NCBI GenBank assembly: GCA_037446635.1
Contig: JBBIIG010000005.1
Span: 32,001-96,000 of the forward strand
Length of the DNA: 64,000 bases
Source: a bacterium
Lineage (GTDB): Bacteria > Zhuqueibacterota > Zhuqueibacteria > Oceanimicrobiales > Oceanimicrobiaceae
Direction: 5' to 3'
The first letter of the stretch is position 1. Each line of letters opens with the position of its first letter. The position numbers and the translations under genes were made by a program. The notes under the pieces are model-generated. The model searched no databases. It was given only the letters and a program-made list of their open reading frames with translations, and had not been told where the DNA came from. Shown piece after piece: positions 2,976 to 37,654 of this stretch.

Positions 2976-3124
2976 AAGTTCCCTCCTTTGGAAAAGGAGG
3001 GACAGGGAGGATTGGTTTTTGTAGGATGGTCGTACTAATGAATCCCCCTTCCGCGAAGCCTGCCTGCGCAGGCAGGCGGATCCGCTTTGGCGGAAAATCC
3101 CCCTCTTTCAAAGGGGGACTTTTA
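2976..3124. repeat. Composite CCCCT/AGGGG hairpin element with two nested mini-palindromes
   Basis: TCCCTCCTTT-GG-AAAAGGAGGGA left arm; right arm AATCCCCCT[TCCGCGAAG[CCTGCCTGCGCAGGCAGG]CGGATCCGCTTTGGCGGA]AAATCCCCCTCTTTCAAAGGGGGACTTT. Confidence 0.85.
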
Positions 3125-3192
3125 GTCCCGAATGGTGACGTTTGCATTTTTCAATTTTCACTTTGCATTATGACTACACAATTTGAGGAGAA

Positions 3193-4002
3193 ATGGAATT
3201 GACTGAGGCTGAAGAAATTGTAGAATCAAAGCCAGAATTGAACGACCCGCTGCTTGAAAAAATCCGCCGCTACTGGAACTCCCACATCCATGATCTCGAA
3301 TTAGCAAAGCACCCTGTTGGCAGCAAGGGATTTTTCGAGGATCTCAATGAGTACCGTTTCGACAAATTGCGCTACCTGCCCAAGGTCGTCGATTTCAATG
3401 GCTACAAAGGAAAGAAGCTGCTGGAAGTCGGATGTGGCGTCGGCATCGATGCGGTGCGATTCGCCCGCGGCGGCGCAATCGTTACCGGAGTGGATTTGTC
3501 TGAAACGGCCATCGAACTGGCGAAGAAGAATTTTTCGCACAATGAATTAGCTGGCGACTTCCGCGTGGGCAATGGCGAGGCGCTGGAATTCGCCGACAAT
3601 TCTTTTGATGTGGTTTACGCCCACGGCGTTATTCAATACACCGCCAACGCGCAGAAATTAGTGGACGAACTGCGCCGCGTCGTCAAGCCCGGCGGCGAGG
3701 TGATCATGATGGTGTACAACCGTCATTCGTGGCTCAACTTTCTTTCGGTGACGATGGGGGTCGGTCTCGAACATCAGGATGCGCCGGTGTTGAAGAAATA
3801 CACCATCGCGGAATTTCGAGAGTTGCTTGCTAATTTCTCACAAGTCAAAATTATCCCGGAGCGGTTTCCGGTAAAATCGCGTCTGCAAAAGGGCGCGAAA
3901 GCCGCGTTCTTTAACTACTTTTTTGTGCCTGCTTTCAATTTGATTCCGAGATTTTTGACGCGTAATAGCGGCTGGCACATCATGGCTTTTGCGTATAAGT
4001 AA
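3193..4002 (+). CDS. Class I SAM-dependent methyltransferase
   Basis: LLEVGCGVG motif I, GVDLS, FADNSFDVVY, VKPGG. Confidence 0.92.
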   Translation: MELTEAEEIVESKPELNDPLLEKIRRYWNSHIHDLELAKHPVGSKGFFEDLNEYRFDKLRYLPKVVDFNGYKGKKLLEVGCGVGIDAVRFARGGAIVTGVDLSETAIELAKKNFSHNELAGDFRVGNGEALEFADNSFDVVYAHGVIQYTANAQKLVDELRRVVKPGGEVIMMVYNRHSWLNFLSVTMGVGLEHQDAPVLKKYTIAEFRELLANFSQVKIIPERFPVKSRLQKGAKAAFFNYFFVPAFNLIPRFLTRNSGWHIMAFAYK

Positions 4003-4017
4003 GTCATCAATATTGAT

Positions 4018-4110
4018 AAACCGCAGCGAACGCAGAGTGAAATCCTTTTGGAAAAAATGTGATCTCCAGAATTTGGTTTTCTCTGCGCTCTCCGCGTCCT
4101 CTGCGGTTAA
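4018..4110. repeat. AACCGC...GCGGTT inverted-repeat element with ~9-nt periodic arms
   Basis: AACCGCAGCGAACGCAGAG ... CTCTGCGCTCTCCGCGTCCTCTGCGGTT. Confidence 0.8.
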
Positions 4111-4132
4111 ATTTTCTGGACAAACGATCTAA

Positions 4133-5816: not shown

Positions 5817-5917
5817 GTCATTTCGAACGCCGCCGTATTTTGGTGGCGTGAGAAATCTGACGACGCAGACACGTTCAAAGAAAAGCTGACCGCTGAAAAG
5901 CTGATAGCTGACAGCTT
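5817..5917. repeat. Half GTCAT-type palindromic element followed by AGCTGA heptamer repeats
   Basis: GTCATTTCGAACGCCGCCGTATTTTGGTGGCGTGAGAAATCTG; AAGCTGACCGCTGAAAAGCTGATAGCTGACAGCT. Confidence 0.75.
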
Positions 5918-5950
5918 GAACCCAATGAATTAGACAAGACATTCGTTCAC

Positions 5951-6971: not shown

Positions 6972-7289
6972 TGCCAGGCACCTTCAAGGTGCCTGGCACT
7001 TCAGTGATACAGGCAGGCGAATCCCGACGCTTTTCCGCGAAGCGGATCGGCTCTGCCGATTGTCGGGTGAGGAATCTGACGAAGAATGGATCGCAGAGAT
7101 TAAATGAGAACTGAGCGATTCGCCAAGTCTATTCTCCGACAGATTCCTCGACTCCGCTGCGCTCCGCTCGGAACGACGCGTTGAATCGAATGTTCGAACA
7201 TCGAACAAGGAACTTTTGAATTTCGAACATGCAAAAAGCTGACAGCTGAACTTAAAAAGTGCCAGGCACCTTCGAGGTGCCTGGCACTT
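6972..7289. repeat. Composite repeat: two GTGCCAGGCACCT hairpins enclosing a nested GTCAT-type element and heptamer repeats
   Basis: TGCCAGGCACCT-TCA-AGGTGCCTGGCA (6972-6998) and AAGTGCCAGGCACCT-TCG-AGGTGCCTGGCACTT (7257-7289); 7010-7085 matches the reverse complement of 9346-9421 at 75/76 nt. Confidence 0.85.
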
Positions 7290-7303
7290 AAAGTGAGTCA
7301 CCA

Positions 7304-9162: not shown

Positions 9163-9440
9163 TGTCATTCCCGCATGCTTTTAGCGGGAATCCATTTGAC
9201 GAGAATGCTGGATGCCCGATTGAAGCATTCGGGCATGACAACGAAAATTATCGAATTGTCATTTCGAAGCTGAGCGCAGCGAAGTGAGAAATCTGACGGA
9301 GAATAGATGTCGCGAATCTGGTCGGAGTTAATTTGAAAGATCGGCTCTTCGCCAGATTCCTCACCCGACAATCGGCAGAGCCGATCCGCTTCGCGGAAAA
9401 GCGTCGGGATTCGCCTGCCTGCCGCAGGTAGGGAATGACA
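9163..9440. repeat. Two tandem GTCAT...ATGAC palindromic elements, the second with nested mini-palindromes
   Basis: TGTCATTCCCGC..GCGGGAATCCA/TGGATGCCCG..CGGGCATGACA (9163-9240); TGTCATTTCG..GAGAAATCTG/CAGATTCCTC..GAATGACA (9257-9440). Confidence 0.85.
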
Positions 9441-9780: not shown

Positions 9781-11721
9781 ATGATTTTCGGCATCACCCA
9801 TCACGATAAAAATCGACACGTCAACAAAGAAGCATTTTTGAATCTCGTACCGGCGCGGTTGGCGGGCAAAGCCGTTAGCAGTTTCATTCAGCAAAATATC
9901 GCGCTGGGAGCTTCGGAGATGAACGTCCCCACGATCGATGACGGCGTGGGACTCGCGTTCAGCGCGGATAAGAAAATCGTGGTGGCGGCATCGGGTAATA
10001 TTTTCGCCGCTGCTGAGTTTGCCGGAAGCAAAAATGAACCCGTCGCGCAAACCATTTTGCGGGCGTATCAGTCCGCGGGTGAAAACGGCTTCAAACATCT
10101 TAACGGACAATTTGCTGCCGCCATCTGGGATTCGACGCAAAACAAATTTCTGCTGGTGCGCGATCACCTCGGCTTCGAGCCACTGTTCTACTACTGGGAT
10201 GGCCAGACCCTCATCTTCAATTCGTTTCTCAGAGATTTGATTCGCCACGAGAATGTGCGCCGCGATTTCAATCATCGCGCCATCCGCAATTACCTGTTGT
10301 TCAATTACAATCCCGGCCTCGAGACGTTTATTCAGAATGTGCGAAAGGTGCGGCCGGGGCACGTGCTGGTTTTGGAGAATGGGAAGGTGGAGGAGAGGAG
10401 GTATTGGAGGCTTTCATACAATACCAGCGGCAACACCCCCCCTAGCCCCCCCTCAAGGGGGGGAATGGAAGTGGGTTCGAAGGGGGGAACTCTAGAAGAT
10501 TACAAAGCGGAGCTACTGCGGCTGACGCGCGACGCCATTCGCATCCGCACGCAGGAGACGGCGTCCGACCCCGGCGCGTTCCTCAGCGGCGGCATGGATT
10601 CCAGCTCGGTGGTGGGACTGCTGAGCGGACTCACCGAGCGGCCCATCCACACTTTTTCCTTTCGCTGCGAGGGCAAGTACGTGGACGAGTCCTACTACGC
10701 GCGAGTGATGGCTAACCATTACAAAACTCGCCATAACGAAATTCCGTTCACCGCCGACGAGCTGCTCAACTTTGAAAAAATGGCCGAGTGGATGGATGAG
10801 CCGCTGTGCGACATCGGCGTGGAGCTGGGGTCGTTCATCATGGGGCGCGCGGCGCAGGGCCATGTTCAGTACATCCTCACCGGCGATGGCGGCGACGAGC
10901 TGTACGCCGGCCACCCGGTGTATCTCGCCGATCAAATGGCCGCGGCGTTCGACAAAATTCCGGCGCCGCTGCGCGCGGGCGTGCTTGGCATCGCGGGGCT
11001 ACTGCCGGATTCCGATAAAAAGAAAAGTCTGTTGGTGAAAGCGCGGCGCTTCGCGTATAGCTACGGTTTCCCCGCGGAGCTGCTGAGCAATCGCTGGCGC
11101 ATTTATTACACCGGCGCGGAGCTGGCGCGTCTTTGCACTCCGGAGGTGGTGCAGCAATTCGGCGATCTCGACTCGTACCGCGATATCACCGATTTGTACG
11201 CCGACGCCGACGGCCCCGACCATCTCAGTCGCGCGCTTTATGGCGATTATCAGACGCTGGTGCATTTCCACGTTGACCGCCTGCGGCTGACCCGCGCATG
11301 GGGCATCGAGGCGCGCTTCCCGCTGCACGATTACCGGCTCGTCGAGTTTTCGGCGACCATTCCGTCGGCGCTGAAGATTCGCCCGCCTGCCTCAGGCCTC
11401 TGGCGGGCAGGCAACTCGCAGGTGAAATACATTCAGCACGAAGCGCTGGCCGGCGTGCTGCCCGATGAAATCGTTTTTCGCAAAAATAAAATGGGTCACA
11501 ATGTGCCGATGAAAAACTGGATGCGGGAAACTACCGTGTTCCGCGATTTGATGAACGACGTACTCTCCGAAACTGCGGTGAAGCGGCGCGGCATGTTCAA
11601 CGCGCCGTTCGTGAAACAGATGCTGGATCTCCATCTCCGAAAGAAAAAGGACTACTCCCATCGCCTCTACGCCCTCGTGATTTTGGAACTCTGGCTCAAG
11701 AAAAACATCGATAATCGATGA
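9781..11721 (+). CDS. Asparagine synthase-related protein lacking the N-terminal Cys; carries two in-frame palindrome insertions
   Basis: LNGQFA, RDHLGFEPLFY, LSGGMDSS, TGDGGDELYAG, EARFP; begins MIFGIT. Confidence 0.9.
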   Translation: MIFGITHHDKNRHVNKEAFLNLVPARLAGKAVSSFIQQNIALGASEMNVPTIDDGVGLAFSADKKIVVAASGNIFAAAEFAGSKNEPVAQTILRAYQSAGENGFKHLNGQFAAAIWDSTQNKFLLVRDHLGFEPLFYYWDGQTLIFNSFLRDLIRHENVRRDFNHRAIRNYLLFNYNPGLETFIQNVRKVRPGHVLVLENGKVEERRYWRLSYNTSGNTPPSPPSRGGMEVGSKGGTLEDYKAELLRLTRDAIRIRTQETASDPGAFLSGGMDSSSVVGLLSGLTERPIHTFSFRCEGKYVDESYYARVMANHYKTRHNEIPFTADELLNFEKMAEWMDEPLCDIGVELGSFIMGRAAQGHVQYILTGDGGDELYAGHPVYLADQMAAAFDKIPAPLRAGVLGIAGLLPDSDKKKSLLVKARRFAYSYGFPAELLSNRWRIYYTGAELARLCTPEVVQQFGDLDSYRDITDLYADADGPDHLSRALYGDYQTLVHFHVDRLRLTRAWGIEARFPLHDYRLVEFSATIPSALKIRPPASGLWRAGNSQVKYIQHEALAGVLPDEIVFRKNKMGHNVPMKNWMRETTVFRDLMNDVLSETAVKRRGMFNAPFVKQMLDLHLRKKKDYSHRLYALVILELWLKKNIDNR

Positions 11722-11815
11722 TCGATAATTGATGATTGAAAAGCGAAACGAGGAAATTGATACCGGACGTCGATGTTCTTTTTAATCGTCGATCAACGAT
11801 TATCGATCATCGATC
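11708..11815. repeat. Inverted arms of ATCGATA/G heptamer repeats
   Basis: TCGATAATCGATGATCGATAATTGATGATTG ... TCGATCAACGATTATCGATCATCGATC. Confidence 0.75.
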
Positions 11816-11847
11816 TTCACATTTCTACCCAAAGAGAGAGGAACTAA

Positions 11848-13728: not shown

Positions 13729-13802
13729 AGGTTGTCATTGCCTGCCTGTCCGCAGAAGCGGATCCGCCTCGCGGACGCGGGCAGGCGAGTCGAAGCAATC
13801 TC
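13684..13802. repeat. GTCA(C/T)TGCG-type element pair with doubly nested mini-palindromes; inverted relative of 20328-20424
   Basis: GGGACTGCTTCGCAAAAAGCGCCTCGCAGTGAC..GTCATTG[CCTGCCTG[TCCGCAGAAGCGGATCCGCCTCGCGGA]CGCGGGCAGG]CGAGTCGAAGCAATCTC. Confidence 0.85.
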
Positions 13803-13823: not shown

Positions 13824-14807
13824 ATGAGAAAAATGAAGCAACCAGAATACTCCGTCGTAGTCCCTGTGATGAACGAAGAGCAGAACGTCGAAATTCTCTT
13901 CAATCGCATCAACGATGTGCTCAGCCAGATGGGGCGGGAGTATGAGATCATTTTCGTCGATGATGGCAGCAGCGACCGCACGTTCGAGATTTTGAAAGCG
14001 ATTCACGCGCGACACCCGCAGCTCAAGGTGGTGAAGTTCCGCCGCAACTTCGGGCAATCGGCGGCGATGGCCGCGGGCTTCGAACAGGCAAAGGGGCGCA
14101 TTGTGATTTCGATGGACGGCGATCTGCAAAACGATCCTGCGGACATCCCGGCGATGATCAAAAAAATGGATGAGGGCTACGACATCGTCGCGGGCTGGCG
14201 GCGGAATCGGCAGGATAAAATGCTGGTGCGCAAAGTGCCGTCGAAAATTGCCAATCGGCTCATTCGCTATTTTACCGGCGTGCAGTTGCACGACACCGGC
14301 TGCTCGCTGAAAGCGTACCGCTCGGAGGTCATCAAAAAAATTCGGCTGTACGGTGAGCTGCACCGGTTCATCCCGGCGTTGGCGCGAGTGGAGGGCGCGC
14401 GCATTTCGGAAATCGTGGTGGCGCATCACGCCCGCCAATTCGGCCGCTCGAAATACAACTTGACCCGCACCTTCAAAGTGATCATGGATCTCACCACGTT
14501 GAATCTGTTCATCAAATATCTCCACAAGCCGCTGCACTTTTTCGGCGGACTGGCGTTCTGGTTCAACGTGGTCGGGCTGATTTCACTATTCCTGTGTGGC
14601 TATCTGTTTTTCACAAACCGATATGATCTGGCTGGATTGAATGTGTTGATTTCAGTGTCGTTTCTGTGGCTGGCCTCGGGCTGGCAATCGATTTTTTACG
14701 GCCTGATCGCCAACATGGTGGTGAAGACGGGGGATAATCATGATGGCAAGTTGGTTGAAATTTATAACCATAAAGACACAAAGAACACAAAGTTTGAAAA
14801 GCATTAA
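13824..14807 (+). CDS. Glycosyltransferase family 2 (ArnC/DPM-synthase-like polyprenol-phosphate glycosyltransferase)
   Basis: VVPVMNE, FVDDGSSD, RNFGQSAA, MDGDLQNDP, two C-terminal TM helices. Confidence 0.92.
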   Translation: MRKMKQPEYSVVVPVMNEEQNVEILFNRINDVLSQMGREYEIIFVDDGSSDRTFEILKAIHARHPQLKVVKFRRNFGQSAAMAAGFEQAKGRIVISMDGDLQNDPADIPAMIKKMDEGYDIVAGWRRNRQDKMLVRKVPSKIANRLIRYFTGVQLHDTGCSLKAYRSEVIKKIRLYGELHRFIPALARVEGARISEIVVAHHARQFGRSKYNLTRTFKVIMDLTTLNLFIKYLHKPLHFFGGLAFWFNVVGLISLFLCGYLFFTNRYDLAGLNVLISVSFLWLASGWQSIFYGLIANMVVKTGDNHDGKLVEIYNHKDTKNTKFEKH

Positions 14808-14988
14808 CCACGAAGAACACGAAGGTCACGAAGTTGGAAAAAATATTTTTATCTCAAATTCTAAAAAACTGTTCTTCCACTTTCATGGAGGTTTTTTTCT
14901 TGTGGATTTTCTTCGTGTTCTTCGTGACCTTCGTGGTTCAAAAATTTTAATGGGTTTATTTCTTTGTGACCTTTGTGCCTTTGTGGTG
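14766..14988. repeat. Two concentric inverted-repeat elements with 9-nt periodic arms
   Basis: Outer AACCATAAAGACACAAAGAACACAAAG / CTTTGTGACCTTTGTGCCTTTGTGGT; inner AACCACGAAGAACACGAAGGTCACGAAG / CTTCGTGTTCTTCGTGACCTTCGTGGTT. Confidence 0.85.
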
Positions 14989-15006
14989 AATTAAAATTGA
15001 GGATAT

Positions 15007-16041
15007 ATGAAAGAGCAAGTTCTCAGCAGGACTAAACCCTTGGACGGAAAGGCAAACAAGAAAGTCGCGCCAGCTAAAACACTCGCTTCGATCATCGTGG
15101 CGGTGCGGGATTTTGAAGATGACATTCAGAGCGTCTACGCTGGCTTGACAGAGACGTTTACTAAACCTCCGACCTTTACTAAACCTTCGAGGTTTAGTAA
15201 AGGTGAGGGCAGCTACGAGTTCATTTTCGTCGATGATGGCAGCCTCGATGGCACGTGGAATCAATTGAAGAAAATCGCCAATGGCAACGCGGGCGTGAAG
15301 CTCGTGCGGATGCGCACCTCGTTTGGCGAGGCCGCCGCTTTCGATGCGGGACTGAAGCAGGCGGCGGGCGAGAAGATTGTGTTCTTCACCACGCGCGTGC
15401 GCATCAATCCCGCGCAGCTCTCCAAATTGCTGGCGCGCCTCGACGACGGCTGCGATCTGGTGATGGGGTGGCGCCATCCCCGCCGTGACTCGAAACTCAA
15501 CCAGTTTATCTCGAAGGGCTTCAACGCCATCATCCGCTGGATTTCGAAACTGCATTTGCAAGATGTGAACAGCGGCGTGTTTGCGGCGCGGCGCGAGGTT
15601 TTGGAGGACGTCCCCATTTACGGCAACATGAACATCTTCCTGCCGATACTGGCGTCGCGCAAAGGCTACCGCGTCGGCGACGAGCCCATCGAGCAGTTGG
15701 CGGGAAAATTCCGCCAGTCGAAATATGTGTCGGAGTACGTGCAGCGCGTGCTCGATATCGTCACGGTGATTTTTCTCACCAAGTACTCGAAGAAGCCGCT
15801 GCATTTTTTAGGATTTTTGGGATTCATTTTCACCATCGTTGGGCTGGCGATGAACGTGTATTTGTTCATTTATCGCGTGCTGCAGTTCGGCCCGATTGCG
15901 GGACGGCCGCTGCTGCTGTTGGGCGCGCTGCTGCTGGTGATCGGCATTCAGATGATCTCCATCGGCTTGATTGGCGAGATGATCATTTTCACCCACGCGC
16001 GGGAGATTAAGGAGTACACGATTGAGGAGATTTTGGAGTGA
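15007..16041 (+). CDS. Glycosyltransferase family 2 (ArnC-like) with degenerate DxD motif and an in-frame hairpin insertion
   Basis: FVDDGSLD, collinear with 13824-14807; FFTTRVRINP replaces MDGDLQNDP. Confidence 0.85.
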   Translation: MKEQVLSRTKPLDGKANKKVAPAKTLASIIVAVRDFEDDIQSVYAGLTETFTKPPTFTKPSRFSKGEGSYEFIFVDDGSLDGTWNQLKKIANGNAGVKLVRMRTSFGEAAAFDAGLKQAAGEKIVFFTTRVRINPAQLSKLLARLDDGCDLVMGWRHPRRDSKLNQFISKGFNAIIRWISKLHLQDVNSGVFAARREVLEDVPIYGNMNIFLPILASRKGYRVGDEPIEQLAGKFRQSKYVSEYVQRVLDIVTVIFLTKYSKKPLHFLGFLGFIFTIVGLAMNVYLFIYRVLQFGPIAGRPLLLLGALLLVIGIQMISIGLIGEMIIFTHAREIKEYTIEEILE

Positions 16042-16050
16042 TTGGTTGGC

Positions 16051-16089
16051 ACACGGATGACGCGGATTGGACGGATAGGGACGGATTTT
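16051..16089. repeat. Left arm (CACGGATGAC type) of an inverted repeat whose right arm is at 19275-19302
   Basis: ACACGGATGACGCGGATTGGACGGAT matches the reverse complement of 19276-19301 at 22/26 nt. Confidence 0.8.
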
Positions 16090-16140
16090 AAAACTCGGGA
16101 ACGAGAGAGAATTTGTGATTTTGTAGGAGTTCCTTCTAAA

Positions 16141-16246
16141 CTGTCATTTCGAGCTGAGCGCAGCGAAGCGAGAAATCTGACATAGCACAAATCTGTGTAC
16201 CGCCAGATTTCTCATCCCGTAAAAAGCACGGGATTCGAAATGACAG
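16141..16246. repeat. GTCAT...ATGAC palindromic element
   Basis: CTGTCATTTCGAGC..GAGAAATCTG / CAGATTTCTC..TCGAAATGACAG. Confidence 0.85.
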
Positions 16247-16327
16247 GGGGAGAGAGGTTGATTGGCGAGATGATCGTTTTCGTCTAATGTAGTAGATCAA
16301 AAAATAGGCTATTGGAGATTTTGGACC

Positions 16328-16930
16328 ATGAAAATTGGTGAGCATCTTTATTTTTCTCCGAATTATAAATTCACAGAACTGAGATGGGATGACAAAAGCA
16401 ATCTGATACCCGCCTTTCAAGATAGAGTAACAGGATTTTATTTGGATCCAGTAGATCAACTTAATAATACTATTAGTTCTTTTGCTGCGGGAGTTTTGTG
16501 TGTAACAACAATTGATTTTTTAGCTGCTATTACTACGGGAATTCAGAAAACGGGAGTAAGAATTGAGAACTGGCTCAAATCGAATATCTCTACTTTCGAT
16601 AAAATTGATCCTAACAACAAATCGCAAACTCTCGCTCGAAGGTTTTATAATGAATTTCGAAATGGGTTAGTTCATGAAGGCCGTATCAAAGAAGGTGGTC
16701 AGTTCTCATATGATTTTGAAGAACTTGTCCAAGTTGAGGAATCAGTAATGGTTGTAAATCCCATGCTGCTTGCCACTGCCATCCGCGAAGCTTTTAAAAA
16801 GTATATAGAAAAGGTGAAAACGGACGAATTTGCTTTTCAATCTTTCAAAGCCTCCATAATTCAATTCTTCAGAGTGGATATTGAAATTGTTAAACCTAAA
16901 AACACTATGGTTCAGAATAGGCAGCAATGA
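16328..16930 (+). CDS. Hypothetical protein with HEPN-like Rx4H motif
   Basis: AT-rich 200-aa ORF; YNEFRNGLVHEG. Confidence 0.7.
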   Translation: MKIGEHLYFSPNYKFTELRWDDKSNLIPAFQDRVTGFYLDPVDQLNNTISSFAAGVLCVTTIDFLAAITTGIQKTGVRIENWLKSNISTFDKIDPNNKSQTLARRFYNEFRNGLVHEGRIKEGGQFSYDFEELVQVEESVMVVNPMLLATAIREAFKKYIEKVKTDEFAFQSFKASIIQFFRVDIEIVKPKNTMVQNRQQ

Positions 16931-16931
16931 T

Positions 16932-17852
16932 ATGAAAAACACAATTCCGAATTTAGTATTTTTTGGTGGGAGTATTTTGTTTGTTATTTTCATTAGGACA
17001 GTGGATTTGAGCTTTGGAGGCTTATTTTTTTCCATTACACTCTTCTTAATTGCAATTGTAGTATTTTTCATGAAATATTTGAAAAGGGAAGAAGAGAAAT
17101 TTGATGCTCGAGTTAATAATCTTCTAAGTAAGATTACAGAATTCAATGCTACTCAGAAATATTTGAATTTGGCTTCAGAGTCAGGGATAGCAGTTGATGA
17201 AGCTTCAAACAAACTTTGTTTCTTCGAAAAAAAGAATGAGAGTTTGCAACCTTATATTTATAGTTACAACCAACTCGTCGAATGCGAGCTTGTCGAGGAC
17301 GGGGATACCGTAACTAAGACCTCTCGTGCCAGTCAACTTGGTGGAGCATTGGTTGGCGGGTTAATAGCTGGTGGTGTTGGTACTATCGTTGGTGGCCTTT
17401 CTGGTAAGCGGAAAAGTCTTCAAAAGGTAAGGCGGGTCGATTTAAAAATCATAGTAAATGACACAAGAAAACCAGTGCACATACTTAACTTTTTTGATTA
17501 TGAAACAGAAAAAGGTAGCATACAATACCAAAATGTAATGGCGAAGGCAAATCATTGGTATGGTTTAATAAGCGTATATATAAAACGAGCGGAGCAAGAA
17601 TCCAAATTGATAGAAAAAGTGAGTTCCTTCCGCTGCTCAAACTGTGGCGAGCAGATCGAGCGCGGTTGGCAACATTGTATCAAGTGCGGCGCGTCCGTGA
17701 GTTTATCACGCGATTCTACCGAGACTATTTCCAAAAATCCTTCATATTCTGTGGCTGATGAATTAGCAAAGCTTGTTGAGCTACGAAAAAATGGAACTCT
17801 CACACATGAGGAGTTCATTGCTCTAAAACAAAAGCTACTTTCACAGGGATAG
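16932..17852 (+). CDS. Membrane protein with zinc ribbon and C-terminal SHOCT domain
   Basis: Two N-terminal TM helices, Gly-rich GGALVGG segment, CSNC..CIKC, VADELAKLVELRKNGTLTHEEFIALKQKLL. Confidence 0.8.
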   Translation: MKNTIPNLVFFGGSILFVIFIRTVDLSFGGLFFSITLFLIAIVVFFMKYLKREEEKFDARVNNLLSKITEFNATQKYLNLASESGIAVDEASNKLCFFEKKNESLQPYIYSYNQLVECELVEDGDTVTKTSRASQLGGALVGGLIAGGVGTIVGGLSGKRKSLQKVRRVDLKIIVNDTRKPVHILNFFDYETEKGSIQYQNVMAKANHWYGLISVYIKRAEQESKLIEKVSSFRCSNCGEQIERGWQHCIKCGASVSLSRDSTETISKNPSYSVADELAKLVELRKNGTLTHEEFIALKQKLLSQG

Positions 17853-17888
17853 ATCTTCAGGGCATTAAGAAGAGAAATACAGGAGTAC

Positions 17889-18530: not shown

Positions 18531-18539
18531 AAGATTGGT

Positions 18540-19208: not shown

Positions 19209-19274
19209 TATCACAAAATGTGACACCACATCGCAATCATAAAAAATTGACGAGGCAAAAAAATATTCGGTGTC

Positions 19275-19302
19275 AATCCGTTAAACCCGTGTCATCCGTG
19301 TT
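19275..19302. repeat. Right arm of the inverted repeat bracketing the AT-rich cassette
   Basis: AATCCGTTAAACCCGTGTCATCCGTGTT. Confidence 0.8.
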
Positions 19303-19325
19303 CTATTATTTAGAGAAAAAATAAA

Positions 19326-22819: not shown

Positions 22820-23018
22820 AAAGTGAAACGGCAGAGGGCAAACGGCAGACGTGAAAGCAATCAGTCGGCCCCAAGGTGTCATTCCGAACCGACGCTTTTT
22901 GTCGGTGAGGAATCTGGCGGCTCACAGATCGTTCTTGCAGTACTGAGTTAGGGGCGTAATCGTAAAGTCTATTCTCCGTCAGATTTCTCGACTCCGCTAC
23001 GCTCCGCTCGAAATGACA
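22816..23018. repeat. Heptamer repeats plus GTCAT...ATGAC palindromic element (22877-23018)
   Basis: ACGGCAGAGGGCAAACGGCAGACG; TGTCATTCCGAACCGACGC..GAGGAATCTG / CAGATTTCTCG..CGAAATGACA. Confidence 0.8.
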
Positions 23019-23955: not shown

Positions 23956-25992
23956 GTGCTAAGAAATAAAACCATTTTAACTGTACTTATTTTGGTTATC
24001 CTCGCCGCCGCCTACCTCCGCCTTGCCAACCTCGGCGTCCCCAGCTTCTGGGTGGACGAGCTGGATTTCGTCGATGCGGCGAAATCGATGCTGCGAGTCG
24101 GTGAGCCGCTGCTGGATTCGGGCTATCCCTATCCGCGCGCGCCGCTGCAAACGTACGCGCTGATGGCGTCGTTTAAATTATTCGGCGTGTCGGAGTTTTC
24201 CAGTCGGCTGCCGTCGGCGATTTTTGGGATTCTCTCCATTCCGCTGATTTTCATCATCGGCCGCGGATGGTTCAACGAGCGGGTAGGATTGCTGTCCGCG
24301 CTATTTTTGGCGGTGTCGCCATTTGCCATCGGCTGGTCGCGGGCGTGTCGGATGTATGCGTTGTTTCAACTTTTGTTTTTGGCGGGAGCGTATTTTTTTT
24401 ATCGCGGATTTGAGAATCCCCCTGTTTCCCCCTTTAAAAAAGGGGGAGCAGAAAAATTCCCCCCTGATAAGGGGGGATTAAGGGGGGTGTTCCAGCGCTG
24501 GCAACTGAATCTGCCCTACTTACTTTTAGGTGGATTCTTTCTGCTCCTCAGCTACTCCACGCACCAAAACGCCGGACTTTTTTTGCTAACATTCATCGCC
24601 TATCTTTTATTGATGGCGATCGCGGCCGTTTTTCAACAAGGTTTCTTCGAAGCGTTGAAAAGCAAATACGTCATTCTGATGACAACTATTTTGGGCACAC
24701 TGGTTTTGGCGTACCTCGTTCTCCCGCCAATGCGCGAGTTCGTGATTTACGCTGCCGAGTATCAACCCAAATGGGCGGAGGTGGCATCGGCGCAGAATCC
24801 CTGGCGCATTTTTGAATTTTTCTTTGGCGCGGAGAGATTGCCGTTCAATCTGCTATTCATTGGCGGCGCAATTCTAATTTTGGTAAACTGGAATCGCGTG
24901 GGCGTGTTCACGTTGTTGACTTTCTTCGTCCCTGTGATTCTTTTCAGTTTTGTTTTCCAATATCGCAAAAATGATTATGTGTTTCACGTGTATCCGTTGT
25001 TTTACTTGGTCGGCGCCGTGGCGCTGGATTTTGTGATTGTGAAATTGTCCGAAGTGAAGTTCTTTGACGCTGTGTTTAACAGATTCGCAGTATCCGGGAA
25101 GACACCCCCCTTTATCCCCCCTCAAGGGGGGAATGGAATGGGCGTCCCCCCTCGAGCGGGGAATAAAATCGACGCGTCCCCTCAAAAGAGTGATCAAAAA
25201 AGTGTCCCTCCGCAGGAGGGGGAAAATTTCCCCCCTTACCAAGGGGGGATTAAGGGGGGTCTTAGCCGACTCCCGAAAGAAGCTATTATCGTAGTTGCCT
25301 GCCTGCTTTGGCTGCCGCTGACCTTCAACTTCCGCTTCGCGCAGAAAATCCCGCGGCTGCCGGATGGCAACTTCAACGGCGCCATTTATCACAATGAGTG
25401 GAAAGAAGCGGCGGCATTTTTGAAAGGAAAAGTCTCCGACGAAGATGTGCTGATGTCCACACTGCCGCTGACCGTCAAACATTATCTCGGGCGGGCGGAA
25501 TACAATCTCAATGTCTCGAACGGCGATTTGGCGCGGGAGAAGAACATCGTCGCGGCGGATGGCCGGCTCATCGACTTCTACTCCGGCGCCGATATTATTG
25601 AAGATGTGGCGGAGTTGCAATCGGTGCTCGAGGCGCATCCCTCAGGATGGCTGGTGGTGGATAACTACCGCTTCGAAAATGATGTCTATGTGCCCGCGGC
25701 CATGTGCGAGTTTATGTTGTCGCGCGTAAAAAAAGTGCATGAGACGAAGAACAAAACTGTTTCGGTGTATCGCTGGGAAAAAGCGAGTCAGCCGCCGAGC
25801 GGCGATTCGTCGCTGGATCCGGCCGGTGGCGAAGTTGCTTGCCCTAAAATAGGCAATGTCATTTCGAACCCCGACGCTTTTGCTTTTTGTCGGGGTGAGA
25901 AATCTGGAAATGCACAGGTCGTGCTCAGCCAGATTTCTCGCTGCGCTCGAAATGACACGGCCTCGTTAATGATAAAGGAGACACTCAATTGA
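23956..25992 (+). CDS. Glycosyltransferase family 39-like (ArnT/PMT-type) membrane protein with two in-frame hairpin insertions and a repeat-encoded tail
   Basis: SFWVDE, SEFSSRLPS, WSRACRMY, multiple TM segments. Confidence 0.85.
   Translation: MLRNKTILTVLILVILAAAYLRLANLGVPSFWVDELDFVDAAKSMLRVGEPLLDSGYPYPRAPLQTYALMASFKLFGVSEFSSRLPSAIFGILSIPLIFIIGRGWFNERVGLLSALFLAVSPFAIGWSRACRMYALFQLLFLAGAYFFYRGFENPPVSPFKKGGAEKFPPDKGGLRGVFQRWQLNLPYLLLGGFFLLLSYSTHQNAGLFLLTFIAYLLLMAIAAVFQQGFFEALKSKYVILMTTILGTLVLAYLVLPPMREFVIYAAEYQPKWAEVASAQNPWRIFEFFFGAERLPFNLLFIGGAILILVNWNRVGVFTLLTFFVPVILFSFVFQYRKNDYVFHVYPLFYLVGAVALDFVIVKLSEVKFFDAVFNRFAVSGKTPPFIPPQGGNGMGVPPRAGNKIDASPQKSDQKSVPPQEGENFPPYQGGIKGGLSRLPKEAIIVVACLLWLPLTFNFRFAQKIPRLPDGNFNGAIYHNEWKEAAAFLKGKVSDEDVLMSTLPLTVKHYLGRAEYNLNVSNGDLAREKNIVAADGRLIDFYSGADIIEDVAELQSVLEAHPSGWLVVDNYRFENDVYVPAAMCEFMLSRVKKVHETKNKTVSVYRWEKASQPPSGDSSLDPAGGEVACPKIGNVISNPDAFAFCRGEKSGNAQVVLSQISRCARNDTASLMIKETLN
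25857..25957. repeat. GTCAT...ATGAC element lying inside the 3' end of the GT39 ORF
   Basis: Near-identical to intergenic 20616-20710. Confidence 0.85.
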
Positions 25993-28148
25993 AAGCACTG
26001 GTAACCGGCGCGGCCGGATTTTTGGGACGCCACATTGTTGAAGTTTTACAGAAGCACAAGTATGAAATCGTGACCGTGGTGCGTCCCACGAGCGATGTGA
26101 GTTTTCTCAGAGAAAGAAACGTGCGCATGATTGACGGCGATCTGCGCGATCCCAAAGTTCTCGCAAAAGCCGCCAAAGGTGTGGATGTGATCGTGCACGC
26201 CGCGGCGGCGCTGCGCGGCAGGTGGGAGGATTTCAACGAAATCAACGTCGAGGCGACGCGCCATTTGCTGGAGATAGCACTTCAAGAAAAGGTACAGCGA
26301 TTCGTTTTCATCAGCTCGATCATCGTTTACGATCACACCTCGGCGAAGGCGGGACACACCTTTCGCGAGGACATGCCCTACGAGGAGAAGCAGCAGACGT
26401 TTTACTGCAAAACAAAAATCGCGGGGGAGAAGCTGGTACAGCAGTATCACGAAAAAGGTTTGGCGACGACCATCATTCGCCCCGGCGCGCTCTATGGCAA
26501 GCACGGTCCGATGTTCATGTCGCGACTCGGCATGCCCCTCGGCAGCAATCGTTATCTGATTGTTGGCAACGGAAAATTGCCGTTGCCACTTTCGCACGTG
26601 GAAACGGTGGCCGAAGCGGTCTGGCTGGCGATTTCAAAAAAGGAAGCAATCGGTCAAATTTACAACGCCGTCGAAAGCGATACCCTCACGCAGCGTGAAT
26701 TTTTCGCGCAAGTTCGCCAGCATGTGAAACCGAAATTTTCCACCATTCGTGTACCGCTGCCGGTGATGAACTTCATGGCGATTTGTCTCGACAAATTATT
26801 GGGACTGGCGAAAATGAAATCGCCACTGAGTTTGTCGCAGATCCGACTTTGGGCCACGCCGTTTTTTTATTCAAATGAAAAAATCAGAACAGAGCTCAAC
26901 TGGCAGCCGGCAGATGTTCCCGCCACCGTGCGCGATATGCTTATTTGGAATAAGCAGAAAACACAGCCGAAGCGGAATCCGCCGGGCAACAAAATTAACG
27001 TTGCGATCAATTCCGACAAACAAGTTCGCGTCGGTGTAATTGGATGCGGCGTGATCTCCGGTCCGCATCTCGCTGCGCTGAGTCGCATCAAAAACGCTGT
27101 GGTCGCAGCCGTGAGCGATCCCGTTGAAACCGCGCGCGAAACAATGGCGAAAAAGTACAGCGTCATGAAATCGTATTCCAATTACAAAGAGATGCTGGAA
27201 AACGAAAAGCTGGACGCAGTGCACGTGTGCACGCCATCGCAGAGTCATGCCGAGATCAGCATCGCGGCGATGAATTGCGGCTGCCACGTGTTTGTGGAAA
27301 AACCGTTCGCGCTGACTGCCGCTGAAGCCAAGCGCATGTTGGCCTCTGCGAAAAAGAACAACGTGCTGCTCTGCGTCGATCACAATCACCTCTTCGACGA
27401 AGTGATGGTGAAAGCGCGCGCGATCATCGCCAGCGGCGCACTTGGTCGCGTCTCGTACGTGGAAAGCTGGTACGGCACCTCGTACAGTTCTGACGCCGGC
27501 AGCCGCTACCTGACGTGGGAGGGCCGCAACAACTGGGCGTACAACATGCCCGGCTCGCTTTATCAAAATTTCATCTCCCATCCCATCGCGCTCTTGTTGG
27601 ATGTGATGGGCGACGCGCGCGTGCACGGCGTGCAGGGGAAATTCAATCGCATCGTTCCCCACATGAAAACCGACGAGCTGCGGGTGATGCTCGAAAACGA
27701 AACCATGCTCGGCCTGCTCAGCATGTCGATGGCGGTTTCGCCGCGCTATTTGTTCGTGAATGTTTATGGCACCGCCGCCACGCTGAAGATCGATTTCCTC
27801 AACAAGTACGTTTTTCTCGACAAGCCCGCCGCGAAGCTGCCGCGCGTGGTGAGCCGCAGTCTCAGCGCCATGAAACAGGCGCGCATCATTTTTAGCTCGG
27901 GAATGAAAAACACGGTGCTCGGTTTGCTCGGAAAATACAACATGTATCAGGGCAATGAGACGCTCATTCGGCTATTTTACAAAAGCATCCTCGATGGCGA
28001 TCCGCTGCCCATCGCGCCGGAGGAAGGAGTACGCTCGATGGAAGTGATGGATGAGATTTGGACGAAGCTCGCCACCAGCAATGGCGCGTCTTCGTTAGCC
28101 AAAGTGCCGGTGAAGGGCAAGAAAACTTCGATGACCAAAGAGGATTAA
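25989..28148 (+). CDS. Bifunctional NAD-dependent epimerase (SDR) / Gfo-Idh-MocA oxidoreductase
   Basis: TGAAGFLG and YCKTK in the N-half; GVIGCG, HVFVEKP and DHNHLF in the C-half; TTG start after AAGGAG. Confidence 0.88.
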   Translation: MKALVTGAAGFLGRHIVEVLQKHKYEIVTVVRPTSDVSFLRERNVRMIDGDLRDPKVLAKAAKGVDVIVHAAAALRGRWEDFNEINVEATRHLLEIALQEKVQRFVFISSIIVYDHTSAKAGHTFREDMPYEEKQQTFYCKTKIAGEKLVQQYHEKGLATTIIRPGALYGKHGPMFMSRLGMPLGSNRYLIVGNGKLPLPLSHVETVAEAVWLAISKKEAIGQIYNAVESDTLTQREFFAQVRQHVKPKFSTIRVPLPVMNFMAICLDKLLGLAKMKSPLSLSQIRLWATPFFYSNEKIRTELNWQPADVPATVRDMLIWNKQKTQPKRNPPGNKINVAINSDKQVRVGVIGCGVISGPHLAALSRIKNAVVAAVSDPVETARETMAKKYSVMKSYSNYKEMLENEKLDAVHVCTPSQSHAEISIAAMNCGCHVFVEKPFALTAAEAKRMLASAKKNNVLLCVDHNHLFDEVMVKARAIIASGALGRVSYVESWYGTSYSSDAGSRYLTWEGRNNWAYNMPGSLYQNFISHPIALLLDVMGDARVHGVQGKFNRIVPHMKTDELRVMLENETMLGLLSMSMAVSPRYLFVNVYGTAATLKIDFLNKYVFLDKPAAKLPRVVSRSLSAMKQARIIFSSGMKNTVLGLLGKYNMYQGNETLIRLFYKSILDGDPLPIAPEEGVRSMEVMDEIWTKLATSNGASSLAKVPVKGKKTSMTKED

Positions 28149-28212
28149 TGGATCAATGGATTATTGGATCATTGTTTTTCATTAATCCATTGATCCAACA
28201 ATCCATTAATCC
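28143..28212. repeat. TGGATCAA/TTGATCCA octamer inverted arms
   Basis: GATTAATGGATCAATGGATTATTGGATCA / TTAATCCATTGATCCAACAATCCATTAATCC. Confidence 0.8.
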
Positions 28213-28280
28213 TCGTTCCAAAAGCAGGATCATAATGAAAAGAACTCTCGTTCGAATTACTCCGTCGGTTGGGTGAAGAC

Positions 28281-30946: not shown

Positions 30947-31024
30947 TTAACCGCAAAGTTCGCTAAGATGCCGCAAAGAAAACCATGGCGATCTTTGCGC
31001 AACTGTTGCGTTCTTTGCGGTTAA
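30947..31024. repeat. AACCGC...GCGGTT inverted-repeat element
   Basis: TTAACCGCAAAG...CTTTGCGGTTAA. Confidence 0.85.
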
Positions 31025-33660: not shown

Positions 33661-33764
33661 TGTCATTCCGAACGCCGACGCCCTTTGTCGGCGGAGGAAT
33701 CTGGCGGCGCACAGATCGTGCTCAACCAGATTTCTCGCTTCGCTACGCTCAGCTCGAAATGACA
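33661..33764. repeat. GTCAT...ATGAC palindromic element
   Basis: TGTCATTCCGAACGCCGACG..GAGGAATCTGG / CCAGATTTCTCG..CGAAATGACA. Confidence 0.85.
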
Positions 33765-33934: not shown

Positions 33935-33954
33935 ACTGAAAATGAGGTGATAAA

Positions 33955-35646: not shown

Positions 35647-35670
35647 GCGATTGCGGCGATTTTCACAACG

Positions 35671-35887
35671 TGGAGTAATGGAGCTTGGAGTGGTGGAGTA
35701 ATGGATTGATGGATCAATGGATCAATGAAATGAAAATGCAAAGGGCAGATTTCAAAATTCAAAATTTGGTTTCACGTCTCACGTCTCACAGTTCACGTTC
35801 CAAAACTCCATCACTCCATCGCCCCGTCGCTATGCGCCATGCACATTCATCCATTGATCCAGTAATCCATTAATCCATTAATCCAAC
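35671..35887. repeat. Concentric stack of octamer/heptamer inverted arms
   Basis: TGGAGTAATGG..TGGATTGATGGATCAATGG ... TCACGTCTCACGTCTCAC ... ACTCCATCACTCCA ... TCCATTGATCCAGTAATCCATTAATCCA. Confidence 0.8.
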
Positions 35888-35903
35888 CAGAAAGAGGGAG
35901 GCC

Positions 35904-37337
35904 ATGCAGAGAACCATTCTAATTTTGCTTACACTTTTCATCCCGCTAAGTTTTGGCTTGTTGACCGCGCAGCCGGCGACAAATCAGCAAAGCCTTGTGT
36001 TGATTCTCGATGCTTCCGGTTCGATGTGGGAGCAAATTCAGGGCCGGCATAAAATTACCATCGCGCGGCAGGTGTTGAAAGATTTGGTTGCGGGACTGCC
36101 GGACGATTCGGAAATTGGGCTGGTCACGTACGGCCATCGCAGCAAAAGCGATTGCGCCGATATCGAGACGCTAGCGCCGCTCGCCAAAATCAACAAAGCC
36201 GATCTCATCTCCAAAGTGGAGGCGATCAACCCCCTTGGCAAAACTCCCATCACCGATGCCATCAAGCAAGCGTTTGAGCTGGTAAAAAGCCGGGCTGATG
36301 AAACCACCATCGTGTTGCTCAGCGACGGCCTCGAAACCTGCGGCGGCGATCCGTGTCAAACCGTGACCGCGGCGAAGAAAGCTGGCGCGAATTTTATCAT
36401 GCACGTCATCGGGTTTGATGTCGGCAAAGTTGACGCCTCGCAGCTCGAGTGCACTGCGCAGGCTGGCGGCGGACTCTACCTCAGGGCCAGCAACGCCGAT
36501 GAGTTGTCCGCTGCATTGAATCAAACGGTCGAAGCGCCAGCGATTCCGAACAGCCGCATCTCGGTGAAAGCCGTTGCCGACGGCCAGCTCACCGATGTTT
36601 CCGTGCACGTTTACAAAGCCGGCACCAAAGAAGAAGTCGCCGGGGGGCGCACTTACAAATCCCCCGACACCAACCCGCGGCTGTTGCCAGTGGCGGCCGG
36701 GGCGTACGACATCGAAGCGATCGCCATTGGCTTTCGCGGCAACGTGTCGCGCACATTCAAAGGCGTGCAGGTTGGCGAAAATGCGACCGTCGAAAAGGTG
36801 GTGGATTTCAGCACCGGCGAGCTTTCGATTCTGGTGACGCGCAATGGCCAGCTTTCCGACGCCACCGTTGGCGTTTACGTTGCCGGTACGAATGAAAATG
36901 TTGCCAGCGGCCGGACCTATAGATCTGCCAACTCCAATCCCAAAGTGATAAAAATCACTCCGGGCGAATATGACGTTACGCTCGGCTCGGTTGAAATCGA
37001 GGGCAAGCCGGAGCGGAAAATCACCGGCGTTGTGGTCGAACCGGGAACGCGCGTCGAGCACAAAATTGAATTCGACAGCGGCACGTTGCGAGTTGGCGCG
37101 GTGCAGGGCAGCACATTAGTAGATGCCACGGTCACAGTTTACGACAAAGCGAAACGCCAGCAAATCGCGGCGGGCCGAACTTACACCAATGCCAACTCCA
37201 ACCCGAAGACTTTTGAAATGCCCACCGGCGAATTTGTAGTGGTGGTGAAGCCGGTAAAGCCGGCGGGCAAATCGGCGCGGGAGATCAGCGTTGTTGTTCG
37301 CAAGGGAGAAACGGTGGAGCAGAAGGTGGAGTTTTAG
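35904..37337 (+). CDS. Secreted VWA-domain protein with three tandem beta-rich repeats
   Basis: Signal peptide, LDASGSM MIDAS, SDGLETCGGDPC; three GRTY..NP repeats. Confidence 0.9.
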   Translation: MQRTILILLTLFIPLSFGLLTAQPATNQQSLVLILDASGSMWEQIQGRHKITIARQVLKDLVAGLPDDSEIGLVTYGHRSKSDCADIETLAPLAKINKADLISKVEAINPLGKTPITDAIKQAFELVKSRADETTIVLLSDGLETCGGDPCQTVTAAKKAGANFIMHVIGFDVGKVDASQLECTAQAGGGLYLRASNADELSAALNQTVEAPAIPNSRISVKAVADGQLTDVSVHVYKAGTKEEVAGGRTYKSPDTNPRLLPVAAGAYDIEAIAIGFRGNVSRTFKGVQVGENATVEKVVDFSTGELSILVTRNGQLSDATVGVYVAGTNENVASGRTYRSANSNPKVIKITPGEYDVTLGSVEIEGKPERKITGVVVEPGTRVEHKIEFDSGTLRVGAVQGSTLVDATVTVYDKAKRQQIAAGRTYTNANSNPKTFEMPTGEFVVVVKPVKPAGKSAREISVVVRKGETVEQKVEF

Positions 37338-37654
37338 TGCAGACCGCACGGCGCATAGTGCACAGCGCATAGTGCATAGCGCAGAGTGTAAAAGCGCAAT
37401 CCAGAAATTCAATGATACTTTGATTACGTTTAATCAGCTCTAGCGAATTGTCATTCCGAATCCCGACGCTTTTCCGCAAAGCGGATCGGCTCCGCCGATT
37501 GCCGGGTGAGGAATCTGGCGGCGCACGGAAACGTCATTACACACAATCCGTTTTGAGCGAATCGCTGAATTCATTCTGCGTCGGATTTCTCGACTCCGCG
37601 GCGCTAGCAAATGACAATTATTTCGATCTGCGTTAATCTGCGTCATCTGCGTCT
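37337..37654. repeat. GCGCATA heptamers, nested GTCAT element (37449-37616) and ATCTGCGT arm
   Basis: GCGCATAGTGCACAGCGCATAGTGCATAGCGCA; GTCATTCCGAATCCCGACGCTTT[TCCGCAAAGCGGATCGGCTCCGCCGA]TTGCCGGG; ATCTGCGTTAATCTGCGTCATCTGCGT. Confidence 0.8.

What the first reader, a model, noticed from the sequence alone, without database searches (positions are those of the whole stretch)
2976..37654. Hierarchy of nested mini-palindrome families occupying almost every junction of the polysaccharide operon
Seen: at least seven families. These are GTCAT..ATGAC (13 sites), CCCCT/AGGGG hairpins, AACC(G/A)C and CACGGAT 9-mer arms, TGGATCAA octamer arms, heptamer arms, GTGCCAGGCAC hairpins, and tiny CCTGCC..GGCAGG and TCCGC..GCGGA units. 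They nest like Russian dolls. At 3041-3124 CCTGCC sits in TCCGC, which sits in CCCCT. At 13734-13802 the order is reversed (TCCGC in CCTGCC in GTCAT). At 9257-9440 both sit in a GTCAT element. Removing an inner unit restores the host consensus, e.g. GTCATTC|CGAATCCC as at 37450. They are nearly absent from 39-57 kb (only ~50950). Established: REP/BIME and Rickettsia palindromic elements are analogous. Inference: several non-autonomous elements mobilised in trans that target hairpin DNA.
Basis: partly seen in the sequence, partly recalled or inferred. Interest (0 to 1): 0.8.

Follow-up and report, generated by a model that had tools for sequence, protein, structure and literature searches.

The report
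Nested repeats, each with own enzyme
The gaps between genes of this bacterial sugar-synthesis operon are filled by about eight families of small hairpin repeats that sit inside one another, and most families match the repeats that bracket one particular kind of tiny enzyme gene elsewhere in the genome, so they are likely gene-less copies of several independent selfish DNA elements, most of whose gene partners I did not find described in print.

Summary
The families are real, genome-wide and nested as described, in a KSB1-lineage bacterium. Relatives keep the same operon with tight junctions or different repeats, so the elements are not fixed RNAs or terminators. No enzyme gene lies in the window, but elsewhere in the genome 19 small genes sit in repeats. 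Across the class the pairing is specific (either/both flanks): DUF559 with C-run hairpins 18/12 of 22, GxxExxY with 9-mer arms 17/8 of 29, four-helix bundle with heptamer arms 22/13 of 26, Ssn-type GIY-YIG with CGTC-type repeats 13/9 of 15; cross-pairings are near zero. An 18/19-bp palindrome and a 27-bp twin hairpin insert precisely, without clear target duplication, into other elements, tRNA remnants and, in frame, genes. Known: Ssn/CGTC, RAYT/TIRYT, BoxC-type repeats, in-frame palindromes. Not found in my searches: the DUF559, GxxExxY, four-helix and Slx1-like pairings. This scan noted these pairings before on other DNA, and the octamer one in this genome. Movement itself and hairpin targeting are inferred, not shown; the 18-bp unit has no partner gene yet.

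The parts
2980..3012 (.). F2 C-run/G-run unit with three-box (triplex-type) layout
   Evidence: sequence; layout compared by eye with PMC4666352 passage
3043..3119 (.). Triple nest: F7 (3059-3076) in F8 (3050-3094) in F2
   Evidence: z -3.9
4019..4108 (.). F3 9-mer inverted arms, gene-less
   Evidence: junction 4-66 bp in 9 of 10 relatives
5817..5918 (.). F1 left arm (5817-5862) followed by an F5 heptamer arm
6972..7290 (.). Two F6 hairpins (6972-7000, 7258-7290) around a damaged F1 copy (7003-7178) that holds F8 (7034-7059) and an F7 remnant, plus a heptamer tract
   Evidence: 93-94% match to arms of the Y1 gene on C29
8329..8355 (.). F8 twin hairpin (27 bp) in frame in the linker of the fused LPG-synthase/hexapeptide ORF 7304-9145
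9164..9239 (.). F1 dimer of the dRS3/NTS type; fits the published SRM pattern by eye
   Evidence: z -5.6; at least 20 look-alikes in same-genus G001
9258..9439 (-). F1 copy holding F8 (9372-9397) and a 19-bp F7 (9414-9432)
10426..10490 (+). F2 unit in frame in asparagine-synthase gene 2 (+17 aa)
   Evidence: absent from the 11 orthologs that cover the site
11383..11412 (+). F7-related palindrome in frame in asparagine-synthase gene 2 (+9 to 10 aa)
   Evidence: absent from 12 of 12 orthologs
11707..11820 (.). F5 heptamer inverted arms, gene-less
   Evidence: 94% match to an arm of the four-helix gene on C22
12685..13050 (.). F4 octamer arms enclosing a degenerate F1 copy (from 12729)
   Evidence: junction -1 to 7 bp in 5 of 7 family relatives
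13734..13802 (.). Triple nest in reverse order: F8 (13749-13775) in F7 in a half F1
14766..14990 (.). F3 9-mer arms, two nested pairs
15157..15200 (+). Eighth palindrome family, in frame in a GT2 gene (+12 aa)
   Evidence: absent from 17 of 17 orthologs; similar palindromes flank some Y1 genes in relatives
16048..19307 (.). F3 arms (16048-16090, 19260-19307) enclosing an F1 copy (16143-16244) and four AT-rich cargo ORFs (16328-19208)
   Evidence: junction -4 to 162 bp in 17 relatives
20328..20709 (.). F1 tail-to-tail pair (20328-20415), F2 pair (20440-20540), F1 dimer (20617-20709)
   Evidence: (z -9.0); genes overlap here in 10 of 12 relatives; no element in G001
22878..23017 (.). F1 dimer
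24427..24490 (+). F2 units in frame in the ArnT/PMT-like gene
   Evidence: variable region; insert edges uncertain
25103..25266 (+). F2 array in frame in the same gene (about +49 aa)
   Evidence: 5 orthologs cover the site
25858..25956 (.). F1 dimer, read through by the ArnT/PMT-like ORF
28140..28214 (.). F4 octamer inverted arms, gene-less
   Evidence: (z -6.4)
30947..31024 (.). F3 9-mer arms, gene-less
33662..33763 (.). F1 dimer
35672..35885 (.). F4 octamer arms enclosing heptamer tracts
37345..37655 (.). Heptamer arm, F1 copy (37450-37615) holding F8 (37473-37498), and an F3 arm
37863..37880 (+). F7 18-bp palindrome in frame in carA (+6 aa), just outside the finding
   Evidence: (2 of 2 orthologs 6 aa shorter)

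Best explanation
The window holds gene-less copies of about eight repeat families; six of them match the repeats that bracket one class of small gene elsewhere in this genome and its relatives, and each family is likely a separate selfish element whose own enzyme, acting from afar, would recognise and cut the folded single-stranded repeat so that new copies arise. Shown: family-specific gene-in-repeat cassettes (F1 with Ssn-type GIY-YIG, F2 with DUF559, F3 with GxxExxY, F4/F5 with four-helix bundle, F6 with a Y1 HUH enzyme); patchy presence among relatives; precise insertion of F7 and F8; survival in genes only in frame. Weaker: F8 with an Slx1-like GIY-YIG at tRNA genes. Inferred: cutting on single-stranded DNA (from Ssn and Y1 biochemistry); since GIY-YIG and PD-(D/E)XK enzymes cut but do not rejoin, host repair or recombination would complete the insertion, possibly during DNA uptake. 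Inferred: loops of existing hairpins are accessible and harmless landing sites, which yields the nesting; composites are then copied as a unit. The four-helix protein has no known catalytic role and would need a helper.
For: 19 small genes of five classes in the genome lie in or beside repeats, none in the window. Their arms match window copies at 88-97% for F1, F4, F5, F6 and match 9-69 other loci for most genes. Class-wide either/both-flank counts: DUF559-F2 18/12 of 22; GxxExxY-F3 17/8 of 29; four-helix-period 7 22/13 of 26; Ssn-F1 13/9 of 15; Y1-F6 3/3 of 13; 600 control genes 17/0, 30/0, 56/3, 111/6, 10/0; off-diagonal cells at most 3/1 among the class sets. Twin hairpin upstream of Slx1-like genes in 9 of 59 metagenome loci vs 0 of 91 distal flanks. 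Syntenic operon in relatives has tight junctions, or other repeat families at them; same-genus G001 has the families at many other loci but not at two covered junctions. Window-only in-frame inserts. Removing exactly one unit gives a junction with 2 or more copies elsewhere for 16 of 59 F7 and 18 of 55 F8, against at most 4 for seven other deletion lengths. SsnA cuts single-stranded DNA beside its hairpin, and its authors liken the layout to IS200/REP (PMC11893778 passages).
Against: No movement was observed; near-identical strains (about 98%) keep the nest at 2981-3396 unchanged. No partner gene was found for F7. The F8 link is weak: 1 of 9 class loci, and the broad pattern was written after seeing those flanks (the narrower window-derived pattern gave 8 of 68 vs 0 of 32). 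The F3 motif was set after a plainer period-9 measure gave only 9/2 of 29. Arms of the DUF559, GxxExxY and Slx1-like genes of this genome gave no family-specific blast hit in the window, so the window's F2, F3 and F8 sub-types are matched at family level only. 10 of 13 relatives of the C29 Y1 enzyme carry other repeats than F6. Loci are the best 30 hits of related genomes, not independent, and include 1-2 genes of this genome. The in-frame excess is partly built in, since an out-of-frame copy breaks the ORF by which it would be classed. Four-helix proteins have no nuclease assignment.
Confidence: 0.65

Rival explanations
1. The repeats are spread by one shared machinery (Y1/RAYT enzymes, recombination or replication slippage), and the small genes are passengers that once landed in a repeat and were inherited with it.
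For: Six Y1-type genes are present. Four-helix proteins are not known nucleases. F3 arms at 16048-19307 enclose unrelated cargo, and several ordinary genes are bracketed by repeats on both sides. Period-7/8/9 arms look like slippage products.
Against: Pairing is one family to one gene class over many genera, with near-zero cross-pairing; each Y1 gene has its own repeat; SsnA acts directly on its repeat (PMC11893778).
Confidence: 0.2
2. The systems are domesticated: the host keeps enzyme and repeats to limit or steer uptake of foreign DNA, or to process and stabilise long operon transcripts, and the copies are kept by selection.
For: SsnA lowers integration of repeat-bearing DNA in Neisseria, where repeats cluster at surface genes (PMC11893778). 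The operon holds cargo islands next to duplicated gene starts. Not exclusive with a selfish origin.
Against: The same operon works without them in most relatives; copies decay and are interrupted by other families; copies also land inside genes and tRNA remnants.
Confidence: 0.12
3. They are conserved structural RNAs or terminators of the operon.
For: Strong predicted folds; most copies lie right after a stop codon.
Against: No Rfam match in the window; not orthologous across relatives; found on both strands, inside genes and at hundreds of loci.
Confidence: 0.03

Closest known systems
Ssn nucleases with NTS/SRM repeats (Chenal et al. 2025, PMC11893778; seen: first of 11 parts and two sets of passages)
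   Same: A 95-aa single-domain GIY-YIG gene (C4:20447-20734) between F1 repeats; one window copy (9164) fits the SRM pattern by eye; Tyr/Tyr/Glu positions match SsnA spacing within one residue.
   Different: Most F1 copies here are longer multi-hairpin dimers that do not fit the SRM string; the passages seen cover one enzyme family only and no nesting.
GTAG/CGTC REPs, RAYT and TIRYT (Di Nocera et al. 2013, PMC3733652; seen: parts 1-2 of 8 and passages)
   Same: F1 is the CGTC-tagged type; Y1 genes with an HUH motif sit in their own palindromes; the paper notes a few REP families inserted in other palindromes and several families per genome.
   Different: It found no dedicated enzyme for CGTC repeats and, in the parts seen, names no DUF559, GxxExxY or four-helix partner; F6 has no GTAG tag.
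BoxC / PIT / TM-ECO intrastrand-triplex repeats (Holder et al. 2015, PMC4666352; seen: passages)
   Same: F2 units have the three-box layout; F8 lands in the short loop between boxes.
   Different: Window copies do not fit the exact E. coli pattern (by eye); the paper found no mobility gene near the motif, whereas here DUF559 genes sit between such units.
Rickettsia palindromic elements (as summarised in PMC10969869; seen: passages)
   Same: Palindromes inserted in frame in housekeeping genes.
   Different: RPEs are about 150 bp; F7 and F8 are 18 and 27 bp, and at least four families do it here.
Classical MITEs of DDE transposases
   Same: Small, gene-less, inverted ends, moved in trans.
   Different: No target duplication is needed to restore the host site; partners are not DDE enzymes.

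Membership tests
Ssn/SRM | single-domain GIY-YIG of about 95 aa | tested here: met
   PF01541 above cut-off for 95-aa and 105-aa proteins; conserved Tyr, Tyr, Arg, His, Glu
Ssn/SRM | assignment to CDD cd10448 | not testable with these tools
   no CDD library; no NCBIfam hit
Ssn/SRM | gene flanked by SRM-type repeats on both sides | tested here: met
   F1 on both sides of both genes; 13/9 of 15 homologs with my F1 motif; the published string was not run on these loci
Ssn/SRM | window copies fit the published SRM string | tested here: inconclusive
   by eye: met at 9164, not met at 13734 and 33662, which share only the end tag and tail
Ssn/SRM | site-specific single-strand cleavage | not testable with these tools
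   needs protein assay
REP/RAYT (TIRYT) | Y1 enzyme with HUH motif and catalytic Tyr | tested here: met
   C29:28020-28598, PF01797 54.3 bits over cut-off 23; motifs read
REP/RAYT (TIRYT) | NCBIfam REP-associated tyrosine transposase cut-off | tested here: not met
   68.6 bits, cut-off 80
REP/RAYT (TIRYT) | GTAG end tag on the repeat | tested here: not met
   F6 lacks it; GTAG repeats flank three other Y1 genes and have 0 hits in window 1-38 kb
BoxC/PIT/TM triplex repeats | three-box C-rich/G-rich layout with short loops | tested here: met
   by eye at 2980-3012, 20440-20482 and 3043-3119 after removing the inserts
BoxC/PIT/TM triplex repeats | exact TM-ECO pattern | tested here: not met
   by eye on window copies only
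BoxC/PIT/TM triplex repeats | triplex formation | not testable with these tools
   needs CD or NMR
Classical MITE | target-site duplication | tested here: not met
   F8: exact-unit removal restores hosts, longer deletions do not; F7: same, though 34 of 59 flanks read G|C, which could be a 2-bp duplication round a 16-bp core. Larger families not tested
Rickettsia palindromic elements | in-frame insertion in genes | tested here: met
Rickettsia palindromic elements | about 150 bp, RPE sequence families | tested here: not met
   18-51 bp units; sequence homology to RPEs not tested
Structural RNA / terminator | Rfam match or fixed orthologous position | tested here: not met

The most novel reading that the evidence does not exclude
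REP/RAYT and NTS/Ssn are two members of a much wider class of minimal mobile elements: one small gene between folded single-strand repeats, with at least five unrelated protein families (two GIY-YIG clades, Vsr-like DUF559, GxxExxY, Y1 HUH, and a non-catalytic four-helix bundle) each driving its own repeat without target duplication. In this lineage they coexist as a community in which 18- and 27-bp units parasitise the loops of the larger ones. DUF559 and GxxExxY would then be new structure-guided single-strand nucleases, and DUF559 the missing partner of BoxC-type repeats.
Probability: 0.35. Interest if true: 0.85.

Novelty: new variant of a known kind. Interest (0 to 1): 0.63.

Why it matters
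It names a candidate enzyme and a cognate substrate for several long-orphan bacterial repeats and for three large uncharacterised protein families (DUF559, GxxExxY, four-helix bundle; the last two occur in 108 and 106 of 121 genomes searched). One genome supplies a full enzyme-by-repeat matrix with built-in negative controls, so the question of how small palindromic repeats spread becomes a direct bench test. New site-specific single-strand nucleases would also be useful tools. The 18- and 27-bp in-frame units explain odd short peptide inserts in proteins of this lineage.

Tried and rejected
Operon-specific role: rejected, the families are genome-wide. Structural RNA: no Rfam hit. Fusion of the LPG-synthase and hexapeptide genes by F8: rejected, the ORFs read through in 5 of 9 relatives too. 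Partner gene for F7: none among short genes of this genome. A period-9 autocorrelation measure for F3 was weak (9/2 of 29). The published SRM string hit 8 of 600 control genes and 1 of the non-Ssn class loci. No solved structure for the GxxExxY or Ssn-type protein; the four-helix protein matches 2GSC and 2RLD, both uncharacterised. No RNA holder listed. Contigs of related organisms: records at roughly 90-94% identity are 24-30 bases shorter over 7304-8613, 7982-8886 and 10584-11702, which fits loss of F8 at 8329 and of the 11383 insert, but the gap places were not listed and a closer look did not complete, so this is not counted as evidence. Enrichment of F7/F8 in host repeats against random intergenic sites, and folding of reconstructed empty sites, were not computed; by eye about 34 of the 42 intergenic F7 hits lie in another family, without a null. 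Literature: GxxExxY gave 2 listed papers, neither on repeats by title and abstract start; four-helix plus repeats gave 0 twice; DUF559 plus repeats listed 25 of 7472, two holding DUF559, neither on this by title; family accessions gave 6 listed papers; Ssn follow-ups 5; nested REP/MITE 3. These were seen as listings only; subscription papers and all supplements were not seen and may hold such pairings. Dropped before the cross-table: of 30 loci each, DUF559 lost 3 fusion ORFs, 4 with short flanks and 1 not recovered; GxxExxY lost 1; four-helix lost 4; of 80 Slx1-like loci 68 had long enough flanks, 59 after removing duplicates.
Full report
Setting. The window is contig C5:32001-96000 of a 4.64-Mb genome, 52.5% GC. 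FtsZ relatives with a title are mostly KSB1/Zhuqueibacterota. Positions 1-38.7 kb are one co-directional cluster of asparagine-synthase-like, epimerase, glycosyltransferase, flippase and carA genes; 44-56 kb is the cell-division cluster.

Observation. An alignment of seven window F1 copies shows F7 and F8 as clean 19- and 26-nt gaps. Most family patterns far exceed an order-4 Markov control; the shortest F1 and F3 motifs do not on their own. A motif-free count finds dispersed repeats in 18 of 28 gene gaps at 2.9-37.7 kb, 7 of 22 at 38-64 kb and 1274 of 2975 same-strand gaps genome-wide; other regions reach 20 of 25. The operon is a rich sample of a genome-wide state, and the poor stretch is mostly a cluster of overlapping genes.

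Not fixed. The operon is syntenic in relatives of the family and class. Their junctions are mostly -30 to about 90 bp where the window has 95-420 bp of repeats; longer spacers in relatives hold other families. Same-genus G001 has the same families at dozens of other loci but no element at the two junctions it covers. Inserts in asnB2 (+17, +9/10 aa), a GT2 (+12 aa), the ArnT-like gene (about +49 aa) and carA (+6 aa) are missing from the orthologs that cover them. Against recent activity: strains about 98% identical keep the first nest intact.

Partner genes. None lies in the window. In the genome, two short Ssn-type GIY-YIG genes lie in F1-type repeats, one DUF559 gene between inverted F2 units, four GxxExxY genes between 9-mer arms, five four-helix-bundle genes between heptamer or octamer arms (one with weak arms), and six Y1 genes each in a palindrome family, one of them F6; one Slx1-like GIY-YIG gene lies between tRNA-Ser and a tRNA remnant with F8 in its anticodon loop. 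A broken DUF559 fragment has no such arms. Arms match window copies at 88-97% for F1, F4, F5, F6; the DUF559, GxxExxY and Slx1-like arms give no family-specific window hit. In the class, either/both-flank counts are DUF559-F2 18/12 of 22, GxxExxY-F3 17/8 of 29, four-helix-period 7 22/13 of 26, Ssn-F1 13/9 of 15, C29-type Y1-F6 3/3 of 13, with off-diagonal cells at most 3/1 and 600 control genes at 17/0, 30/0, 56/3, 111/6 and 10/0. The F3 motif was fixed after a weaker first measure. Twin hairpins precede Slx1-like genes in 9 of 59 metagenome loci and 0 of 91 distal flanks, with a pattern widened after seeing them; tRNA arms flank 7 of 9 class loci. F7 has no partner yet.

The smallest units. 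The genome has 59 intact F7 (42 of 18 bp, 17 of 19 bp) and 55 F8 (40 of 27 bp). In genes, 18 of 18 F7 and 13 of 14 F8 keep the frame, against 24 of 41 and 28 of 41 between genes; this is partly built in. Removing exactly one unit restores a junction present twice or more elsewhere for 16 of 59 and 18 of 55; seven other deletion lengths give at most 4. Read by eye, the 22 restorable F8 sites are loops: the F2 inter-box or hairpin loop, the F1 hairpin loop, the centre of F7-type palindromes, and a tRNA anticodon loop. F7 prefers a G|C step (34 of 59) more than a loop. The same F7-in-F8 composite occurs in two F2 sub-types and the same F8-in-F1 composite three times in the window, so composites are copied whole or hit repeatedly. 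No null for nesting was computed.

Mechanism. Most likely each family is the gene-less form of a one-gene cassette whose product acts on its folded repeat in single-stranded DNA. This is shown for SsnA in Neisseria (PMC11893778) and established for Y1 HUH enzymes (recalled; also cited there); for DUF559, GxxExxY and Slx1-like proteins it is inference from the pairing. Hydrolytic nucleases do not rejoin DNA, so host repair or recombination would finish the job. The four-helix protein fits least; its long arm stems recall rRNA intervening sequences (recalled), and the genome has one reverse-transcriptase ORF that I did not follow. Rivals are shared machinery with passenger genes (0.2), domestication (0.12) and structural RNA (0.03).

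Known and new. F1 is the CGTC/dRS3/SRM type (PMC3733652; PMC11893778). Y1 genes in their own palindromes are RAYT/TIRYT-like. F2 has the layout of BoxC/PIT repeats, for which no mobility gene was found (PMC4666352; lead from earlier scan notes). In-frame palindromes are known from Rickettsia (PMC10969869). I saw only parts or passages of these four papers and no supplements. Searches showed no paper on the DUF559, GxxExxY, four-helix or Slx1-like pairings or on such a multi-family nest; the library lacks most subscription papers. Earlier notes of this scan report the single pairings on other DNA, and the octamer pairing in this genome; they are leads, not support.

Verdict. Interest 0.63.

Noticed in passing
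window 31056-31144, 33821-33909, 34552-34640; also 9449-9650 vs 9755-9956 and about 16260: Gene starts (GT4 twice, asnB2 once) and one gene end (GT2) are duplicated as diverged stubs (74-90% identity) around inserted cargo, as if islands entered by recombination with DNA from relatives.
   Followed up: no
window 29774-34535: AT-rich cargo absent from the relatives' junction: ParE toxin with likely antitoxin, an unassigned gene pair (31134-33616) that looks like a restriction-modification pair, and a DUF433/DUF5615 pair.
   Followed up: partly
window 16328-19208: Four AT-rich ORFs with no Pfam family except one SHOCT domain, enclosed by F3 arms.
   Followed up: partly
window 2970-3192: Ten of 14 relatives, and same-genus G001, have about 1.05 kb or more of coding DNA (radical-SAM-like motif by eye) between these two genes; the window has the repeat nest instead.
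   Followed up: partly
L111 (G000:C94:1-460), L118, L218-L224: Slx1-like GIY-YIG genes sit at tRNA genes with a partial duplicate tRNA, often interrupted by a small hairpin.
   Followed up: partly
G000 genome-wide: Further palindrome families not in the window's first 38 kb, including GTAG-type REPs and several 16-17-bp palindromes with 20-80 hits.
   Followed up: partly
G000:C27:3932-4531: One reverse-transcriptase domain in a 985-aa frame.
   Followed up: no
window 44040-44240: A short unlisted ORF that reads like ribosomal protein L28, followed by a terminator-like hairpin (name recalled).
   Followed up: no
L125, L128, L133, L137, L140: DUF559 domains fused into long ORFs; F2 hairpins are translated next to the domain in some of them.
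   Followed up: no
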